Below are positions 2,772-8,726 of a DNA stretch of 9,143 nt, piece after piece. The translations under genes and the position numbers were made by a program. Below the pieces are notes generated by a model. The model saw only the letters and a list, made by a program, of their open reading frames with translations. It was not told where the DNA came from and did not search any database. Every line of letters starts with the position of its first letter. Positions within the stretch are counted from its first letter, which is position 1. This DNA is from a virus (Duplodnaviria; Heunggongvirae; Uroviricota; Caudoviricetes), in the IMG/VR virus record IMGVR_UViG_2681813261_000008; one strand, written 5' to 3'.

Positions 2772-2975
2772 ATGGCAATTAAGCATTTTCCTGTCGTTCG
2801 TTTCACCTCCAGAGGACGTGAATACGAAGTTGACGAACGCCTGATTACCACAATCGACAAACACCGTTCAGAAAAGGATGCACATCATATCTATCTCACT
2901 GACGGCACTTACTTCTGCGCCACCAACGTGGTGCAGGTGAATCTTATCAGACAGGTACAGGAGTCACGCAGATGA
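2772..2975 (+). CDS. Hypothetical small protein (67 aa)
   Basis: ATG at 2772 preceded by a strong SD AAGGAGG (2761-2767). The track ORF begins at GTG 2721 with no convincing SD. Stop overlaps the next start (ATGA at 2972-2975). Confidence 0.5.
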   Translation: MAIKHFPVVRFTSRGREYEVDERLITTIDKHRSEKDAHHIYLTDGTYFCATNVVQVNLIRQVQESRR

Positions 2976-3217
2976 CCATTCTGGACTACATCGCTGCCAA
3001 TCCGGGTTGTAGCAGTGGAGAAATCGCCGCAGCACTGAATACACCAACCACAACCATTAATGCGGAGCTACGCCGTCTCTGGCGCAGCGGTTTAGTCACA
3101 AGAAAAGAGCGCAAAACAGGCGGTCGCTTTTCTTATCAGGTAAACCTGATGCCGTTTGGGTGTAGCAACCCACTAACCCAGATGTTCAACCAGCTACTGA
3201 GGGAAATCAGAGCATGA
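2972..3217 (+). CDS. Putative winged-helix DNA-binding protein (81 aa)
   Basis: ORF with SD CAGGAG 8 nt upstream. The sequence DYIAANPGCSSGEIAAALNTPTTTINAELRRLWRSGLVTRKERKTGGRFSY has the helix-turn-helix plus beta-hairpin pattern of MarR/ArsR-like wHTH proteins (pattern recognition only). Confidence 0.5.
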   Translation: MTILDYIAANPGCSSGEIAAALNTPTTTINAELRRLWRSGLVTRKERKTGGRFSYQVNLMPFGCSNPLTQMFNQLLREIRA

Positions 3218-3730: not shown

Positions 3731-6553
3731 ATGACGGCAGAGTACATCAGGGACTGGCAACAACCGCGCCACGCAGTGGGGCGTGAAGGAACGGGGATCC
3801 CCGCTCCTGAATCCGCGCTTTCCTCCTGGCTGGATGCCCACCGGGCAGAGAACGAGCGCCGCCAGGAAATGGCTGATGCGGCGTTCTCCGCCACGCCACT
3901 GGGCAACCTGATTAATAAAAGCCTGGACGCACAGGAAAAACAGGACAAAACCATCACACTGGCAGGAGACGCCAGAAAACAGGCACGCGGCGCGGTGGAT
4001 GAAGCCATGGCCTCGCTGCGCCTGCTGCCGTCCTATCTGCGCGATCCGCTTATTCGCCACCTCTCCTTCCTGCGCAAAAAACAGGAAGCCGATCGCCGGA
4101 AAGGCAAAAAGAGCTGGCAGGCGGAACGCTATGCACGCGGAACCCTGCGCAAAATATTCGAACGTCTGGATCGCACTGACGGACACTGGCTGACACCGGG
4201 TTATCGCTCCCTTGCCGGACGTGAACGCCTGGACGATTTGCTTTACCTGCCGCAACTCAACAAACACCAGATACAGACGCTGGCCACCATGACGGCGGCG
4301 ATGTTCAGCAGCACCTTCGAAAAACTCTGCGATGGTTTTGGCGCGACTGATGGCGAGCTGACCATGGATGTAACGCTGAAGGCGTATCAGATGCTGGCCC
4401 GCATGGCGTTACACTTACACGCCATGCCTCCGCATTATGACGCACTGACAACAGACAAAGACCGGAGGCACGAACCGGACACAGAACTGCTGCCGGGCGC
4501 AATCCTTCGCCTGACCTGTGCGGAATGGTGGAAACGCAAACTGTGGCTGTTACGTTGCGAGTGGAGAGAAGAACAACTTCGCGCCGCCTGTCTGGTTTCC
4601 AGAAAAACATCGCCCTATCTGAGCCAGGACGCGTTAAGCGAGTTTCGCGCACAGCGCGAGAAAACACGCGATTTCCTGAAAAGTTTCATGCTGGAAAATG
4701 AAGACGGGTTCACGATTGATCTCGAGACGGTGTATTACGCGGGAGTAAGTAACCCGGTTCACCGTAAGGCAGAAATGATGGCCACCATGAAGGGGCTGGA
4801 ACTTCTGGCCGAAGCCCGTGGCGACAAAGCGGTGTTTCTGACTGTCACCTGCCCGTCAAAATACCACGCCACAACGGAGAACGGTCATCCGAATCCCAAA
4901 TGGAACGGGGCCACAATGCGCGACTCCAGCGATTACCTGGTTAACACGTTTTTTGCGACGGTCCGCAAAAAACTGAACCGCGACGGCCTGCGCTGGTATG
5001 GCATCCGCACGGCGGAGCCTCACCATGACGGCACCGTGCACTGGCATATGATGGTCTTTGCTCATCCGGAAGAAATCGACACCATTGTGTCCCACACCCG
5101 CGATATTGCCATTCAGGAAGATCGTCACGAGCTGGGCGATGACATAACTCCGCGCTTTAAGGCGGAGTATGTAGACGGCTCAAAAGGCACGCCAACCAGC
5201 TACATCGCCACCTACATCGGGAAAAACCTGGACAGCCGCGCCGTGGATGGCATCGACCCGAAAACGGGCAAGCCACGCGTTGACCACGAAACCGGAAAAT
5301 CAATGGCCGAGAGCGTGGAACGCGCCATCGGCTGGGCGCGCCTTCACCGGGTCCGCCAGTTCCAGTTCTTTGGCATCCCCTCCCGCCAGGTATGGCGTGA
5401 ACTGCGCCGCCTTGCCAGCCAGATGGCACGCAACCCGGAAGGCCCGCAACGGCTGAAGGATGACGCAATGGATGCGGTTCTTGCCGCCGCTGATGCCGGA
5501 TGTTTTGCCACCTACATAGAGAAACAGGGCGGCGTACTTGTTCCACGCAAAGACTACCTGATTCGCACCGCCTACGACCTCGCCGATGAGCTGAACGATT
5601 ACGGCGAACAGAGCGTACAGATTTACGGGATCTGGTCACCACTCATCGGGGAATCCTCCCGTGTGTGCACGCATCCGGATAACTGGAAGCTGGTAAGACG
5701 CAAACCGGAAGCGGAAGACAGCGCCCGCGAAAATGGTTTTGACCTTCAGGGCGGCCCTGCCGCCCCTTGGACTCGTGGCAATAACTGTCCCCGTGTACAG
5801 GAAACGGACAACAACGGGACAGAACAGCCGGAAGAACGGCCAGCACCGTGGCCGCAGCTCCCTGACGGCGTTGATGTGGATGAATGGATGCGCTCACTGA
5901 AACGGCACGAACGCCGGGCGCTGATGCGTTCGCTTCGTGACAAACAGGCAAAAAACAGCAGTGATGAAATGCAGAGCTGGACACAGAGCCGCAAACAGCA
6001 GCGGCCTTTGCCTGATAACCACGAATTACTCGCTAAAGAATGGCGGGAGTCTGCTGAATCTCTCGGCCTGCATATCGGTGAACAACAGATGCAGCACCTG
6101 TTACGGGGCGGCAGTCTGTACGTTGACGGCAGCATCATTGCACCGCAGGGATTTGAAATTGTACGCAAACCGGATACCCGCCCGGACAGCCGAATCACGC
6201 AGCTCTGGCAGCGCCTGAGCCGTAATCATGGCGTAAGCAGCACGGAGATCCGCCATAACCCGGTCGCCAGCTATCTGACACAGCTGGGGGCATCAGACCC
6301 TGAAGCCGCCGCACGCCTGGCATCCACACTTCAGCAGGACCAGAACACCATGAAAACACCCGTTACCGTGCTTTCTGACATGCTGCGCGCCATCCGCGAC
6401 GCAGAGCACGCACAGAGAATCAGTGAAACCACTGAACGCGCCCGCCGCAAAGCAGACCTGCTGCGGGGTGGCCTGACCAGTGGAAACAAAAAACAGACAG
6501 AAACGGGACTCACGAATCCCGTAAATGAGCAAAAAACGCGCAGCGATATATGA
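3731..6553 (+). CDS. Rolling-circle replication initiator, P2 gpA-type replication endonuclease (HUH superfamily), 940 aa with a long C-terminal extension
   Basis: Long ORF containing an HUH motif (VHWHMMVF, codons 436-443) followed about 50 residues later by the paired-tyrosine motif SYIATYIGKNL (Y491 and Y495), as in phiX174/P2 gene A proteins. Sits at the end of the early operon as gene A does in P2. Weak SD, probably translationally coupled to the upstream gene. Confidence 0.85.
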   Translation: MTAEYIRDWQQPRHAVGREGTGIPAPESALSSWLDAHRAENERRQEMADAAFSATPLGNLINKSLDAQEKQDKTITLAGDARKQARGAVDEAMASLRLLPSYLRDPLIRHLSFLRKKQEADRRKGKKSWQAERYARGTLRKIFERLDRTDGHWLTPGYRSLAGRERLDDLLYLPQLNKHQIQTLATMTAAMFSSTFEKLCDGFGATDGELTMDVTLKAYQMLARMALHLHAMPPHYDALTTDKDRRHEPDTELLPGAILRLTCAEWWKRKLWLLRCEWREEQLRAACLVSRKTSPYLSQDALSEFRAQREKTRDFLKSFMLENEDGFTIDLETVYYAGVSNPVHRKAEMMATMKGLELLAEARGDKAVFLTVTCPSKYHATTENGHPNPKWNGATMRDSSDYLVNTFFATVRKKLNRDGLRWYGIRTAEPHHDGTVHWHMMVFAHPEEIDTIVSHTRDIAIQEDRHELGDDITPRFKAEYVDGSKGTPTSYIATYIGKNLDSRAVDGIDPKTGKPRVDHETGKSMAESVERAIGWARLHRVRQFQFFGIPSRQVWRELRRLASQMARNPEGPQRLKDDAMDAVLAAADAGCFATYIEKQGGVLVPRKDYLIRTAYDLADELNDYGEQSVQIYGIWSPLIGESSRVCTHPDNWKLVRRKPEAEDSARENGFDLQGGPAAPWTRGNNCPRVQETDNNGTEQPEERPAPWPQLPDGVDVDEWMRSLKRHERRALMRSLRDKQAKNSSDEMQSWTQSRKQQRPLPDNHELLAKEWRESAESLGLHIGEQQMQHLLRGGSLYVDGSIIAPQGFEIVRKPDTRPDSRITQLWQRLSRNHGVSSTEIRHNPVASYLTQLGASDPEAAARLASTLQQDQNTMKTPVTVLSDMLRAIRDAEHAQRISETTERARRKADLLRGGLTSGNKKQTETGLTNPVNEQKTRSDI

Positions 6554-6598
6554 AGCGCGCACAAAACAGGCAAAAACGGGATTTCAGAATCCCGTAAA
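6501..6598. repeat. Two copies of a 25-bp palindromic element, AAACGGGA-N9-TCCCGTAAA (6501-6525 and 6574-6598); candidate parC-like centromere or ParR operator, alternatively an origin element
   Basis: Copy 1 AAACGGGACTCACGAATCCCGTAAA lies in the last codons of gpA. Copy 2 AAACGGGATTTCAGAATCCCGTAAA lies in the gpA-parM intergenic region, overlapping a possible -35 (TTTCAG 6582-6587, 17-bp spacer, ATTAAT 6605-6610). Arms are identical; the spacers differ at 4 positions. Confidence 0.45.
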
Positions 6599-6629
6599 CG
6601 ATTAATTAATCAACATAAGGAAAAGCGAC

Positions 6630-7589
6630 ATGAAAATTTGTATCGACGACGGCTCCACCAACATCAAGCTGGCATGGACTGAGAACGGCGAACGCCGCAA
6701 CGCCATCAGCCCGAACAGCTTCAAGTCGGAATGGTCTGCGCCGTTCGGTGGCATGCAGCCCGCGAACTACATGCTTGATGGCGTGCGCTATGGTTTTGAT
6801 CCGGTCAGCGATCGCTTTGTCCAGACAACCGACACGCAATACCAGTACAGCGATGTAAATGTCATTGCCATTCATCACGCGCTGGTCAAATCAGGCATCA
6901 CGCCACAGGAGGTGGATGTGGTTGTCACCCTGCCACTGAGCGAGTATTTCGACACAAACGCACAGCCGGACATGGCCAACATCAACCGCAAAAAAGCGAA
7001 CGTTATGCGCCCGGTGGAGTACCAGAACGGCGAAGCATTCACTATCCGTAACGTGCGGGTTATGCCTGAATCCATTCCGGCTGGCTTTAAGGCACTGGCT
7101 GACATGAGTCCGTTTGAATCCCTGCTGATTGTGGATTTGGGCGGAACCACGCTGGATGTGGCAAAGGTTCAGGGGCAACTGGCAGGTATCAGCCAGGTGT
7201 TTTGCGATCCACACGTAGGCGTTTCTCTGATGGCCGATGCCGTACTGTCGGTGATGGCCACTAACGGTATGCGCACCAGTCACCACATCGCCAATACCAT
7301 TATCGAACATCGCCATGATGAAGCCTGGCTGCGCCAGCACATCCACAATGACGCGCATTACGCCAGCCTGATGGCGGTTATTCGTGAAAAGGAAGAAACA
7401 CTGAAACAACGCGTGATCCGCGCGCTGGCGGGTTTTTCGGGTTACGGGCGGGTGATGGTTGTCGGTGGAGGGGCGGAGATTGTGGCACCCGCTATCCGCG
7501 AAGCCTGCGGAGTTAATGCGACTTTCATCGCGGACGGGGTGCCACAGTTTGCTCTGGTTAATGGGCTGTACGCAATGGACAAGGAGTAA
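6630..7589 (+). CDS. parM: ParM/StbA-family actin-like segregation ATPase (type II partition), 319 aa
   Basis: N-terminus [31 protein letters not shown] is near-identical in pattern to plasmid R1 ParM as recalled from memory ([21 protein letters not shown]...HISPNSF). DDGSTNIK phosphate-1 motif, [11 protein letters not shown] phosphate-2-like motif and VVGGGAEI adenosine motif are present. SD AAGGA 8 nt upstream. Confidence 0.88.
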   Translation: [319 protein letters not shown]

Positions 7590-7593
7590 ACCA

Positions 7594-7905
7594 ATGACGA
7601 CACCAACCAGACGGATAAGTTTCTATCTGAAGCCTGCGGCCGTCAAGAACGAAAGCGAAGCATGCGCCTGGCTGGGCAGCCTTACACCAGAAGCCCGCAA
7701 AAGCGGCCAACGCGTGGCTTTTCTGGCCGGGCTGGCACTTCTGAAAATGAATCCAGCAGAGGCTTACCGACTGGCTGCATGGGCTGACGATGAGGCGTTA
7801 TCGGTGACACAAACCAGGACAGAACGCCCCGTGCCACAGCCAGTACCAACCGCACAGATAACCAGTCAGATAGCAGGGAATATCCGGGCATTATTTCCTG
7901 AATGA
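7594..7905 (+). CDS. parR: ParR/StbB-like centromere-binding adaptor (about 103 aa)
   Basis: Starts 5 nt after the parM stop with SD AAGGAG (7581-7585). RISFYLKPAAVKNESEACAWLGSLTPEARKSGQRVAFLAGLALL parallels the R1 ParR N-terminal ribbon-helix-helix region as recalled (TIAFKLNPDV...LDSIPQGERSRLNRAALTAGLALY). C-terminal IRALFPE resembles ILRSLFPKE. Track ORF 7459..7905 is an N-terminally over-extended version. Confidence 0.75.
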   Translation: MTTPTRRISFYLKPAAVKNESEACAWLGSLTPEARKSGQRVAFLAGLALLKMNPAEAYRLAAWADDEALSVTQTRTERPVPQPVPTAQITSQIAGNIRALFPE

Positions 7906-7965
7906 CGAATTTGACGGCTTTTAATTTTATCGGGGTGCACTGTCGCCCCGCACGAGGAAAACACG

Positions 7966-8490
7966 ATGAAAAAATACGAATACATGCTAATGAAAGAAGC
8001 ACTGCGGGCTGGTCTGGCTCCCTGTCCTGTATCCGTAGAAGCTGTTGTTGGGAACACGATTTTCCGAACGCTGCGAAATCGCGTATCCGTGAAGATGGTT
8101 CACCAACCACCCAAATCTACCAGCATGATCTATCTGCCGCTGCCCGAGGCTATCAAACTTATGCGTTCGCTGAAATTTGCGATTTGGATGCAGACACAAA
8201 TCAACAAAGCGGTGCAAAACACCTTCGTTAAGAGACTAATACCGGAGCTTGCTGCCAGATGTGCAAAATGTACCAGACCCGCACTTCAATTTGATCTGTC
8301 ATTGATTCAACAAGCTACGGAGGCAGAACTGTACCGCCTGTCACCTATCCGTGATGCTCACACGGAAGCATCAGAAATGTTCCGGCTCATGTTTCAATTT
8401 AATTTTGCCGTTCGACGCACACGCGTTCAGGTCAATCGCATGATGCAGGAGCAGGAAGAGTTAACACAGTACAAAGGGGGCAGCCAGTGA
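7966..8490 (+). CDS. Hypothetical protein (174 aa), first gene of a three-gene cluster
   Basis: ORF with SD GAGGA (7954-7958) 7 nt upstream. No family recognised. Stop overlaps the next start (GTGA at 8487-8490). Confidence 0.55.
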   Translation: MKKYEYMLMKEALRAGLAPCPVSVEAVVGNTIFRTLRNRVSVKMVHQPPKSTSMIYLPLPEAIKLMRSLKFAIWMQTQINKAVQNTFVKRLIPELAARCAKCTRPALQFDLSLIQQATEAELYRLSPIRDAHTEASEMFRLMFQFNFAVRRTRVQVNRMMQEQEELTQYKGGSQ

Positions 8491-8726
8491 GTAATTCAGC
8501 ACGACTACAGCTTGGTTTTTCACCGCTATCAAAAACCATCGTATTGGCAAAAATGCGTGACTTAGGAGACGGAACAAAACGCCGCGTAGGAAATGATCGC
8601 GGTCGCGATGTAACCAACGAGGCCGCTCAACTCGTTTGGCATCTAGTCATGGCAGAAGGCGGTGAAATTAATTGGGAGCTGGATGATGGTTCTCGTATGA
8701 TTTTGAGGGCCGAGAAGAGTAAATAG
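8487..8726 (+). CDS. Hypothetical protein (79 aa), GTG start coupled to the upstream gene
   Basis: GTG at 8487 overlapping the upstream stop, preceded by SD AAGGGGG (8474-8480). No recognisable motif. Confidence 0.45.
   Translation: MSNSARLQLGFSPLSKTIVLAKMRDLGDGTKRRVGNDRGRDVTNEAAQLVWHLVMAEGGEINWELDDGSRMILRAEKSK

What the first reader, a model, noticed from the sequence alone, without database searches (positions are those of the whole stretch)
6501..6610. Paired 25-bp palindromic sites straddling the gpA stop and the parM promoter region
Two near-identical palindromic elements (AAACGGGA-N9-TCCCGTAAA) sit 73 bp apart; one is embedded in gpA coding sequence, the other overlaps a plausible -35 for parM. 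This fits a ParR-bound centromere/operator that autoregulates parMR. They differ from the short direct iterons of R1 parC, so the site architecture may be distinct. Alternatively they could relate to the gpA origin, since P2-type origins lie within gene A.
Basis: seen in the sequence. Interest (0 to 1): 0.6.

Follow-up and report, generated by a model that had tools for sequence, protein, structure and literature searches.

The report
Putative ParR-binding centromere of P2-like prophage
Two matching 20-bp palindromes just upstream of an actin-like partition gene pair (parM-parR) in a very common P2-like E. coli prophage are most likely the docking sites for the adaptor protein ParR: a compact variant of a plasmid centromere with no recognisable promoter, inferred from comparison and not yet tested by experiment.

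Summary
ACGGGAyT-N4-AATCCCGT occurs at 6503-6522 and 6576-6595, 73 bp apart, inside a 42-nt direct repeat (2 matches against 0.01 expected by chance). The window is the early region of a P88-like (Xuanwuvirus, P2-like) prophage: gpA, then ParM, then a ribbon-helix-helix ParR.

The main evidence is comparative. Hafnia and Plesiomonas P2-like prophages (ParM 62-63% identical, ParR 32-37%) carry the same layout. Each has two GGG-N10-CCC sites 72-73 bp apart, at about -130 and -55 from the first ATG of the par unit. The ParR beta-strand TRR[IV]SFYL is kept in all of them.

A P88-like prophage that has gpA but lacks parMR lacks both palindromes. The P2-type ori nick motif lies elsewhere, at 5756-5788. 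Hairpin and terminator potential is not conserved in the distant lineages.

Plasmid relatives instead have R1-style 11-bp iteron arrays around a near-consensus promoter. The phage loci have no convincing promoter.

Best reading (confidence about 0.6): a minimal parC-like ParR-binding site with four half-sites on one DNA face. I rate it a new variant of a known kind, of moderate interest.

The parts
6503..6522 (.). Site 1: palindrome ACGGGACTCACGAATCCCGT (half-sites GGGAy / ATCCC about 11 bp centre to centre). It lies inside the last 17 codons of gpA.
   Evidence: The commonest form in relatives is ACGGGATTCACAAATCCCGT, with perfect 8-bp arms.
6576..6595 (.). Site 2: palindrome ACGGGATTTCAGAATCCCGT with perfect 8-bp arms and a 4-nt centre. 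Intergenic, at -54 to -35 from the parM ATG.
   Evidence: In relatives the centre varies (TCAG or TAAA) and the outer arm positions vary (A to G, CCC to CCT).
6487..6528 (+). Extended direct-repeat unit 1 (42 nt): A-rich left flank, site 1, then right flank GTAAATGA.
   Evidence: family D1, reference copy. A right-flank pattern CCC-R-N-A-A-W-N-G is shared with the Hafnia and Plesiomonas sites.
6560..6601 (+). Extended direct-repeat unit 2 (42 nt, 81% identical to unit 1).
   Evidence: Recombination between the two units deletes 73 bp in one natural variant, L200.
6523..6575 (.). 53-bp spacer between the palindromes. It contains the gpA stop (6551-6553) and A-tracts at 6531, 6563 and 6572. Its sequence is not conserved between lineages, but its length is: the sites are 72-73 bp apart, about 7 helical turns.
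6605..6613 (+). Conserved box ATTAATCAA just upstream of the parM Shine-Dalgarno. Function unknown: it could be part of the translation-initiation region or a weak -10.
   Evidence: Shared by window, Hafnia and Plesiomonas. A closely similar form is duplicated in front of both the inserted orf93 and parM in L131.
6630..7589 (+). parM: actin-like partition ATPase, 319 aa. Shine-Dalgarno AAGGA at 6617-6621.
   Evidence: Pfam StbA_N 2.7e-82 and ParM C-terminal domain 1.3e-68. R1 ParM structure 1MWK, E = 8.5e-93 over residues 2-316.
7594..7905 (+). parR: 103-aa ribbon-helix-helix adaptor, the presumed binder of sites 1 and 2. N-terminal strand TRRISFYL; C-terminal helix ending NIRALFPE.
   Evidence: Pfam PF10784 2e-23. 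The family profile hits pB171 ParR (2JD3), E = 1.1e-12. The AlphaFold model has helices at 14-29, 32-52, 54-62 and 86-100, with mean pLDDT 65.
3731..6553 (+). gpA replication endonuclease (context). Its 3' end overlaps site 1.
   Evidence: Pfam Phage_GPA 6.6e-131; 30% identical to P2 gpA.

Best explanation
The two palindromes are the cis-acting ParR-binding sites (a parC-like centromere or operator) of a type II ParMRC partition cassette carried by a P88-like, P2-family temperate phage.

Proposed mechanism:
- Each 20-bp site offers two inverted half-sites (GGGAy and ATCCC) about 11 bp centre to centre, that is, in adjacent major grooves on one DNA face.
- A dimer-of-dimers of the ribbon-helix-helix ParR inserts its N-terminal beta-ribbon (TRRISFYL) at these half-sites.
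- The two sites are 73 bp apart (about 7 helical turns), so all four half-sites face the same side. The A-tract-containing spacer could bend or wrap to give one compact complex.
- The C-terminal helices of ParR then capture growing ParM filament ends.
- No promoter is recognisable, so the cassette is probably transcribed by read-through from the early (Pe to gpA) operon. It would then act when the phage genome is extrachromosomal, after infection or induction.
- Site 2, 35-54 nt before the parM ATG, could additionally let ParR damp parM-parR expression.

What is shown: the sequence anatomy, the homology of the proteins, the conservation of the layout, and linkage of the sites to parMR. What is inferred: ParR binding, stoichiometry, filament capture, the timing of expression and any repression.
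For: 1. Real and non-random: 2 matches against 0.01 expected.

2. Position: immediately upstream of an intact R1-type ParM and a ParR homologous to pB171 ParR. This is where type II centromeres lie (review PMC5016525).

3. Deep conservation of layout but not of surrounding sequence:
- E. coli P88-likes have GGG-N10-CCC at -125 and -52.
- Hafnia L083 has them at -128 and -55, 73 bp apart.
- Plesiomonas L086 has them at -131 and -59, 72 bp apart.
- ParM is only 62-63% identical and ParR 32-37% identical in those lineages.
- In 935 kb of fetched loci, every GGG-N10-CCC pair 60-90 bp apart is 72-74 bp apart. All but one lie at this position; that one is L089 5511/5584, whose second member lies in coding sequence.

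4. The ParR beta-strand TRR[IV]SFYL is invariant in these three lineages. Relatives with other strands have other repeats:
- NRKISFYL goes with a 21-bp inverted repeat.
- RRKITFYL goes with 11-bp WTCTC iterons.

5. Two ParR alleles, only about 52% identical after residue 19, sit behind identical sites and share residues 1-19.

6. Natural module swap: prophage L206 has the same gpA up to window position 6437, but no parMR and no palindromes.

7. In Hafnia L131 an extra ORF is inserted between the sites and parM. The site pair stays at the head of the orf93-parM-parR unit.

8. There is no other repeat array in 6200-8700.

9. Precedent for a centromere of four direct and inverted repeats bound pairwise in an integrating element: srpC of SXT/R391 (PMC4489591).
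Against: - There are no binding or stabilisation data.
- Only two sites (four half-sites) exist. Known ParR segrosomes use 8-10 or more contiguous iterons and about 12 dimers per turn (PMC2241845, PMC5016525).
- Within the P88-like lineage the GGGA/TCCC cores are not significantly more conserved than their surroundings (permutation p = 0.27). CCC to CCT in site 2 is a common polymorphism. Single-site variants exist (L138, L170, L200).
- No promoter is detectable, so the operator role has nothing obvious to regulate.
- The element is almost always chromosomal (1445 chromosomal places against 2 on plasmids), where a centromere has no obvious use.
- The comparison rests on only three independent lineages.
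Confidence: 0.6

Rival explanations
1. The palindromes are operators for some other DNA-binding protein: another phage early protein (for example the 81-aa winged-helix protein at 2972-3217) or a host factor. That protein would control read-through or a non-canonical promoter for parMR, and ParR would bind elsewhere or non-specifically.
For: - Palindromes are typical of helix-turn-helix or winged-helix dimers.
- There is no direct evidence for ParR binding.
- A MarR-like winged-helix ORF exists in the same operon.
- No consensus promoter is present, so an activator-dependent promoter is conceivable.
Against: - Apart from gpA, which is excluded by the L206 swap, the only gene neighbours recorded in all three lineages that carry the sites are parM and parR. 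The other early genes differ between window, Hafnia and Plesiomonas.
- The sites are lost exactly with parMR.
- The site type tracks the ParR beta-strand type.
- No other repeat in the cassette could serve as parC.
Confidence: 0.14
2. The elements act as nucleic-acid hairpins. Either they are rho-independent terminators for minus-strand transcription entering from the late or accessory region, or they are plus-strand mRNA stem-loops that stabilise the gpA message or modulate parM translation.
For: - Both score as minus-strand intrinsic terminators: 8-bp stems followed by T-rich tails.
- The RNA hairpins fold at -9 to -10.7 kcal/mol, z = -2.2 to -3.0.
- The common arm polymorphisms (A to G, C to T) would keep G-U pairs in plus-strand RNA.
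Against: - At the homologous Hafnia and Plesiomonas sites only a 3-4-bp GGG/CCC clamp with a 10-nt loop remains. Plus-strand folds have z-scores from +0.3 to -1.8, and no terminator is called.
- What is conserved is the GGG/CCC register and the 72-73-bp spacing, which a hairpin does not need.
- There is no minus-strand promoter in 6300-6800.
- In P88 the nearest annotated minus-strand gene on the parR side is more than 2.5 kb away.
- There is no Rfam match.
Confidence: 0.08
3. The repeats are a functionally neutral leftover of a local 73-bp duplication, or a recombination scar at the gpA/parMR module junction.
For: - The two units are direct repeats and recombine: L200 has a 73-bp deletion.
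- The module breakpoint lies about 66 bp upstream, at 6437.
- Within-lineage conservation is not above background.
Against: - Independent retention of two sites at the same 72-73-bp spacing and the same distance from the ATG in lineages with 62% ParM identity, while the flanks have diverged (left flanks 2-4 of 12 identical), is not expected for a neutral scar.
- Among 55 distinct P88-like upstream sequences nearly all keep both sites.
Confidence: 0.07
4. The sites belong to the gpA replication system: the origin, or an auxiliary gpA-binding or termination site.
For: Site 1 lies in the gpA coding sequence, and P2-type origins lie inside gene A (P2 record annotation).
Against: - The P2 nick region (P2 position 29892) has a clear homologue at window 5756-5788 (25 of 33 identical, ending TGGCAATAACTGT). 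It is conserved inside gpA in all seven P2-like loci examined, at 335-797 bp before the gpA stop.
- In Hafnia a 167-aa ORF separates gpA from the sites.
- L206 keeps gpA and loses the sites.
Confidence: 0.03

Closest known systems
parC of plasmid R1 (type II ParMRC; also the pB171 par1 and NR1 stb loci)
   Same: - Homologous motor: ParM matches R1 ParM at E = 8.5e-93.
- Homologous ribbon-helix-helix adaptor: PF10784, and the family profile hits pB171 ParR 2JD3.
- The cis site is repeated DNA directly upstream of parM.
- The repeats are split into two blocks about 7 helical turns apart.
   Different: R1 parC is 159 bp. It has two sets of five 11-bp direct iterons flanking a 39-bp core that holds the par promoter, with one ParR dimer per iteron (PMC2241845). 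Here there are only two 20-bp palindromes, that is, four inverted half-sites. There is no iteron array and no recognisable promoter, and one site lies inside the upstream gene. The host is an integrating phage. Plasmid relatives of this ParM (about 50% identity) do show the R1 layout.
srpMRC / srpC of SXT/R391 integrative conjugative elements
   Same: It is a type II-like partition cassette in an element that normally sits in the chromosome. Its centromere, in the 5' UTR of the motor gene, is made of four short direct and inverted repeats. These are bound as pairs, and single half-sites are not stably bound (PMC4489591).
   Different: SrpR has no detectable homology to ParR (stated in that paper), whereas the adaptor here is a clear PF10784 ParR. 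The repeats there are 13 bp and of different sequence. The host is an ICE, not a phage. The function of srpMRC was shown experimentally; the function here was not.
AlpAC/alpS of Corynebacterium glutamicum prophage CGP3
   Same: It is a prophage-encoded actin-like filament plus a DNA adaptor that binds repeats upstream of its own operon. It is expressed early after induction and links circular phage DNA to filaments (PMC4446434). This is a functional model for what a ParMRC could do in a prophage.
   Different: - The gene order is the opposite: adaptor first.
- There are 24 short TTAAnnG repeats.
- No homology with AlpA or AlpC was tested here.
- The host phylum and the phage type are different.
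pSK41 parC
   Same: ParR binds as a dimer-of-dimers to 20-bp units, each made of two 10-bp half-repeats (review PMC5016525). This is the same unit size as the 20-bp sites here.
   Different: pSK41 has contiguous tandem repeats that form a continuous superhelix. Here two isolated units are separated by 53 bp, and each has inverted internal symmetry.

Membership tests
Type II (ParMRC) partition locus: parC centromere | Cognate actin-like ParM and ribbon-helix-helix ParR encoded immediately downstream | tested here: met
   Pfam StbA_N/ParM and PF10784; R1 ParM structure E = 8.5e-93; ParR profile against pB171 ParR 2JD3, E = 1.1e-12; model with extended N-terminus, two helices and a C-terminal helix.
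Type II (ParMRC) partition locus: parC centromere | Repeated DNA elements directly upstream of parM | tested here: met
   Two 20-bp palindromes within 42-nt direct repeats at -127 to -35 from the ATG. It is the only repeat family in 6200-8700 apart from two short two-copy matches.
Type II (ParMRC) partition locus: parC centromere | Array of tandem direct iterons (8-10 or more units of 10-11 bp), one ParR dimer each | tested here: not met
   There are only four half-sites, arranged as two inverted pairs. Plasmid relatives do have such arrays.
Type II (ParMRC) partition locus: parC centromere | Contains the par promoter, which ParR represses | tested here: inconclusive
   No sigma-70-like site in the window, Hafnia or Plesiomonas. 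The best match in the window is 8 of 12, against 10-11 of 12 in most plasmid relatives. A consensus scan cannot exclude a weak or activator-dependent promoter.
Type II (ParMRC) partition locus: parC centromere | Specific binding by the cognate ParR | not testable with these tools
   There is only indirect support: the site type co-varies with the ParR beta-strand, and the sites are co-lost with parMR.
Type II (ParMRC) partition locus: parC centromere | Cis-acting stabilisation of an unstable replicon, and incompatibility | not testable with these tools
   Needs a plasmid-loss assay.
Rho-independent (intrinsic) terminator | GC-rich stem-loop followed by a U-run, at the end of a transcription unit, conserved in homologues | tested here: not met
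   The stem plus T-run is present on the minus strand in the window. It is absent at the homologous Hafnia and Plesiomonas sites, and no minus-strand unit ends here.
P2-type rolling-circle origin (gpA nick site) | Homology to the P2 nick region ...CCTCGGAGTCCTGTCAATAACTGT inside gene A | tested here: not met
   The palindromes show no such motif. The motif is at 5756-5788 (25 of 33 identical) and is conserved in seven loci.
SXT/R391 srpC-type centromere | Bound by SrpR; 13-bp srpC repeat consensus | not tested
   This is an architectural resemblance only (PMC4489591). The adaptor here is a PF10784 ParR, not SrpR.

The most novel reading that the evidence does not exclude
The cassette may not be a plasmid-style inheritance device. 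It may be a minimal, promoter-less ParMRC wired into the P2-type early operon. Two operator-like ParR sites would mark the phage genome only while it is extrachromosomal. ParM filaments would then position or separate replicating phage circles (as AlpAC does for CGP3), or would sustain a transient plasmid-like carrier state before integration. Because the cassette is present in about a quarter of complete E. coli genomes, this would be a widespread and unstudied cytoskeletal function of P2-like phages. It would also be a natural example of how few ParR sites suffice to engage ParM.
Probability: 0.25. Interest if true: 0.65.

Novelty: new variant of a known kind. Interest (0 to 1): 0.42.

Why it matters
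ParMRC is the textbook actin-like DNA segregation machine, but it has been studied almost only on plasmids. Here a clear R1-family ParM/ParR pair sits in an integrating P2-like prophage found in 1308 of 5426 complete E. coli genomes, including O157:H7 and O104:H4 strains.

Its presumed centromere is reduced to two palindromic sites with no promoter of its own. If ParR binds them, three things follow:
- It defines the minimal cis requirement for a ParR-ParM complex.
- It gives a sequence handle (GGG-N10-CCC twice, 72-73 bp apart) for annotating such loci.
- It makes the question 'what does a partition system do for an integrating phage?' directly testable with site mutants.

It also shows that site 1 constrains the C-terminal codons of the replication protein.

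Tried and rejected
- **Origin hypothesis:** rejected. The P2 nick-site homologue is at 5756-5788, and gpA occurs without the palindromes.
- **Terminator or hairpin hypothesis:** the signal in the window is not conserved in Hafnia or Plesiomonas.
- **Known RNA families:** none matched.
- **parM promoter overlapping site 2:** only 8 of 12 consensus matches and not conserved.
- **Extra purifying selection on the GGGA/TCCC cores within 55 P88-like haplotypes:** not significant, p = 0.27. The lineage is too shallow.
- **Search for more independent lineages:**
  - Viral-contig scans with Hafnia and Plesiomonas ParM gave nothing, or only a group-2 locus.
  - The genome scan gave mostly plasmid-type loci.
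  - The metagenome scan with a group-1 ParR profile returned only E. coli P88-likes.
- **Single-sequence PDB search with ParR:** nothing found; the family profile was needed.
- **Literature:** searches for P88/Xuanwuvirus/P2-like ParM found no study of this cassette.
- **Co-variation between the two ParR alleles and site variants:** none seen. Both alleles occur with both loop variants, as expected if the shared residues 1-19 make the base contacts.
Full report
**What the window is.** The 9.1-kb window is 95-99% identical over 6300-7900 to Escherichia phage P88 and other Xuanwuvirus (Peduoviridae, P2-like) phages and prophages. P88 is annotated with int, C, cox, an early operon ending in the replication endonuclease, then 'ParM' and 'partition protein', then the portal and terminase genes on the other strand.

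In the window:
- gpA is 3731-6553 (Pfam Phage_GPA, 6.6e-131).
- ParM is 6630-7589 (StbA_N 2.7e-82, ParM C-terminal domain 1.3e-68).
- The 103-aa product of 7594-7905 is a PF10784 'plasmid stability' protein (2e-23).

ParM aligns end to end with the crystallised R1 ParM (E = 8.5e-93). ParR alone finds nothing in the PDB. A profile of ten phage and plasmid relatives hits pB171 ParR (2JD3), the ribbon-helix-helix centromere binder, at E = 1.1e-12. An AlphaFold model (mean pLDDT 65) shows an extended N-terminus (residues 1-13), helices at 14-29, 32-52 and 54-62, a disordered linker and a C-terminal helix at 86-100. I read that as a ribbon-helix-helix core plus a ParM-binding tail.

**The observation.** It is confirmed with small corrections.
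- ACGGGACTCACGAATCCCGT lies at 6503-6522 and ACGGGATTTCAGAATCCCGT at 6576-6595, 73 bp apart.
- Both lie inside a 42-nt direct repeat (6487-6528 and 6560-6601, 81% identical).
- The pattern ACGGGA-N8-TCCCGT with up to 1 mismatch occurs twice, against 0.01 expected.
- Site 1 occupies codons for TG(L/F)TNPV near the gpA C-terminus.
- The gpA stop (6551-6553) lies between the sites.
- Site 2 ends 35 nt before the parM ATG.

**Comparative evidence (the main result).** ParM homologues at 54-63% identity sit in other P2-like prophages with the same gpA ... parM-parR ... portal/terminase synteny. These are Hafnia (L083), Plesiomonas (L086), Serratia (L087, L100) and Enterobacter (L092, L129).

Positions of the sites relative to the ATG:

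| Lineage | Site 1 | Site 2 | Spacing |
|---|---|---|---|
| Window (E. coli P88-like) | -125 | -52 | 73 bp |
| Hafnia | -128 (GGGATTGAGGAAACCC) | -55 (GGGTTCATTAAATCCC) | 73 bp |
| Plesiomonas | -131 (GGGACAACAAAAACCC) | -59 (GGGACAACACTAACCC) | 72 bp |

 More divergent P88-likes (ParM 94-95% identical; L133, L134, L136) keep the sites at -124/-51 or -125/-52.

Anchored on the sites, the 16-nt cores are 10-12 of 16 identical between the window and the distant lineages. The 12-nt left flanks are only 2-4 of 12 identical. A right-flank pattern CCC-R-N-A-A-W-N-G is also shared.

In 935 kb of fetched sequence, every pair of GGG-N10-CCC sites 60-90 bp apart is 72-74 bp apart. All but one such pair are at this position. 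The exception (L089 5511/5584) pairs a GC hairpin with a coding-sequence match. The conserved features are therefore the GGG/CCC register and the phasing of the two sites. Taking the half-sites as the 5-mers GGGAy and ATCCC, they are 11 bp centre to centre, and the sites are about 7 helical turns apart.

**Link to ParR rather than to gpA.**
1. In Hafnia a 167-aa ORF separates gpA from the sites.
2. In the Hafnia variant L131/L132 a 93-aa ORF is inserted between the site pair and parM. The pair stays at the head of the orf93-parM-parR unit, and the RBS-proximal box (TATTAAyCA) is duplicated.
3. E. coli prophage L206 has the same gpA up to window position 6437, then a different C-terminus and three unrelated genes. 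It has no parMR and no GGG-N10-CCC anywhere in 7 kb.
4. The ParR N-terminal strand is TRR[IV]SFYL in all three lineages with this site type, although the proteins are otherwise 32-37% identical.
   - Serratia and Enterobacter ParRs (NRKISFYL) go with a different layout: a 21-bp inverted repeat, CGGGAACGAAATAGAAAAATG and its complement.
   - Plasmid ParRs (RRKITFYL and others) go with 11-bp direct iterons with core WTCTC.
5. Two ParR alleles, about 52% identical beyond residue 19, occur behind the same ParM and the same sites. They share residues 1-19 exactly.

These points make ParR the most economical binder. None of them is a binding assay.

**How it differs from known parC.**
- R1 parC has two sets of five 11-bp direct iterons around a 39-bp promoter core (PMC2241845).
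- Type II centromeres are described as tandem repeats, continuous or split, with one ParR dimer per iteron and about 12 dimers per superhelical turn (PMC5016525).
- The plasmid relatives of this ParM (about 50% identity, L101-L128, and phage-plasmid D6) show that layout. Most of them also carry a 10-11 of 12 sigma-70 promoter match upstream, which lies between the iteron blocks where I looked (for example L103: TTGCCA-16-TATAAT).
- The phage loci have no iteron array, and the consensus scan calls no promoter in the window, Hafnia or Plesiomonas.
- The best match in the window is TTCAGA-16-ATTAAT at 8 of 12.
- No plus-strand terminator separates gpA from parM.

I therefore infer co-transcription with the early operon.

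[quoted passage not shown] The closest functional precedent in a prophage is AlpAC/alpS of CGP3 (PMC4446434).

**Rivals.**
- *Origin.* The P2 record places the nick at 29892 inside gene A. The homologous DNA in the window is 5756-5788 (CCTGCCGCCCCTTGGACTCGTGGCAATAACTGT, 25 of 33 identical to P2). The motif is conserved inside gpA in all seven loci tested, 335-797 bp before the gpA stop. Together with L206, this rejects the origin reading.
- *Hairpins or terminators.* In the window both sites score as minus-strand terminators and fold at -9 to -10.7 kcal/mol. At the homologous Hafnia and Plesiomonas sites only a GGG/CCC clamp remains (plus-strand z from +0.3 to -1.8) and no terminators are called. 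There is no minus-strand promoter or Rfam family here.
- *Another regulator.* This cannot be excluded, but apart from gpA (itself excluded by the L206 swap) no other neighbouring gene is recorded in all three lineages.
- *Neutral scar.* This is unlikely given retention across lineages. However, within-lineage conservation of the cores is not above background (p = 0.27). Rare natural variants have one site mutated (L138, L170) or the 73-bp unit deleted (L200).

**Distribution.** The segment 6400-7000 occurs in 1308 of 5426 complete E. coli genomes. There are 1445 places on chromosomes and 2 on plasmids. The element is thus normally an integrated prophage. This argues that the cassette serves the extrachromosomal phase, not long-term plasmid maintenance. 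That last step is inference.

**Verdict.** The feature is real and conserved. It is best explained as a compact, palindromic, promoter-less variant of a type II partition centromere or ParR operator (confidence about 0.6). It is not filed as a canonical parC, because the iteron-array feature is not met and the promoter feature is unresolved. I found no study of this cassette in the searchable literature. Novelty: new variant of a known kind. Interest: moderate.

Noticed in passing
window 5756-5788: This segment is a homologue of the P2 origin nick region: CCTGCCGCCCCTTGGACTCGTGGCAATAACTGT, 25 of 33 identical to P2 around position 29892. It lies inside gpA, in the codons for PAAPWTRGNNC. The motif ...TGkCAATAACTGT is conserved in all seven P2-like loci checked, so this is the likely ori of the phage.
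   Followed up: yes
window 7931-7950: A GC-rich hairpin, CGGGGTGCACTGTCGCCCCG, lies 26 nt after the parR stop and is preceded by TTTTAATTTTATC. The same element precedes the homologue of ORF 7966-8490 at a different position in L089 (5510-5529). It therefore travels with that ORF and marks a module junction. Homology of most P88-likes to the window ends at about 7903.
   Followed up: partly
window 7594-7905 (and L095 2501-2815): There are two ParR alleles in P88-like prophages. They are identical over residues 1-19 and in the C-terminal LFPE tail, but only about 52% identical in between. Both sit behind 99%-identical ParM and the same palindromes. This suggests mosaic exchange inside parR.
   Followed up: partly
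window 6400-7000: The gpA-end/parM segment is present in 1308 of 5426 complete E. coli genomes, including O157:H7 and O104:H4 strains. There are 1445 places on chromosomes and only 2 on plasmids.
   Followed up: yes
P88 genome NC_026014 position 30280 (L130 about 16280; outside the window): A third CGGGA-N8-TCCCG (CGGGACATCTCTTTCCCG) lies inside the tape-measure gene. A 10-base pattern is expected about 0.03 times in 35.8 kb by my own estimate. It could be chance or an extra ParR site.
   Followed up: no
window 6605-6613; L083 about 4973-4981; L086 about 4964-4972; L131 about 3170 and about 3515: The box ATTAATCAA, just upstream of the parM Shine-Dalgarno, is conserved in the three site-bearing lineages. 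In Hafnia L131 a closely similar form is duplicated in front of both the inserted orf93 and parM. Its role is unknown: it could be a translation-initiation context or a weak -10.
   Followed up: partly
L087 4871-4950, L092 3878-3950, L129, L100: A second group of P2-like prophage parMR cassettes (Serratia, Enterobacter; ParR strand NRKISFYL) has a different upstream layout. It is a 21-bp inverted repeat, CGGGAACGAAATAGAAAAATG and its complement, about 27 bp apart, followed by a GCCGTTTAAACGGC palindrome. It shares the 15-mer CAGGCAAAAACGGGA with the left flank of site 2 in the window.
   Followed up: partly
L200 (metagenome contig) upstream of parM: This natural variant has the 73-bp unit between the two direct repeats deleted. 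One hybrid site remains, and gpA ends at a new in-frame TAA.
   Followed up: partly
L206 3579-3625: In the P88-like prophage that lacks parMR, gpA ends in a different tail. It is followed by a hairpin (AAGGCCTCC-N10-GGAGGCCTT) and three unrelated minus-strand genes. The breakpoint corresponds to window position 6437.
   Followed up: partly
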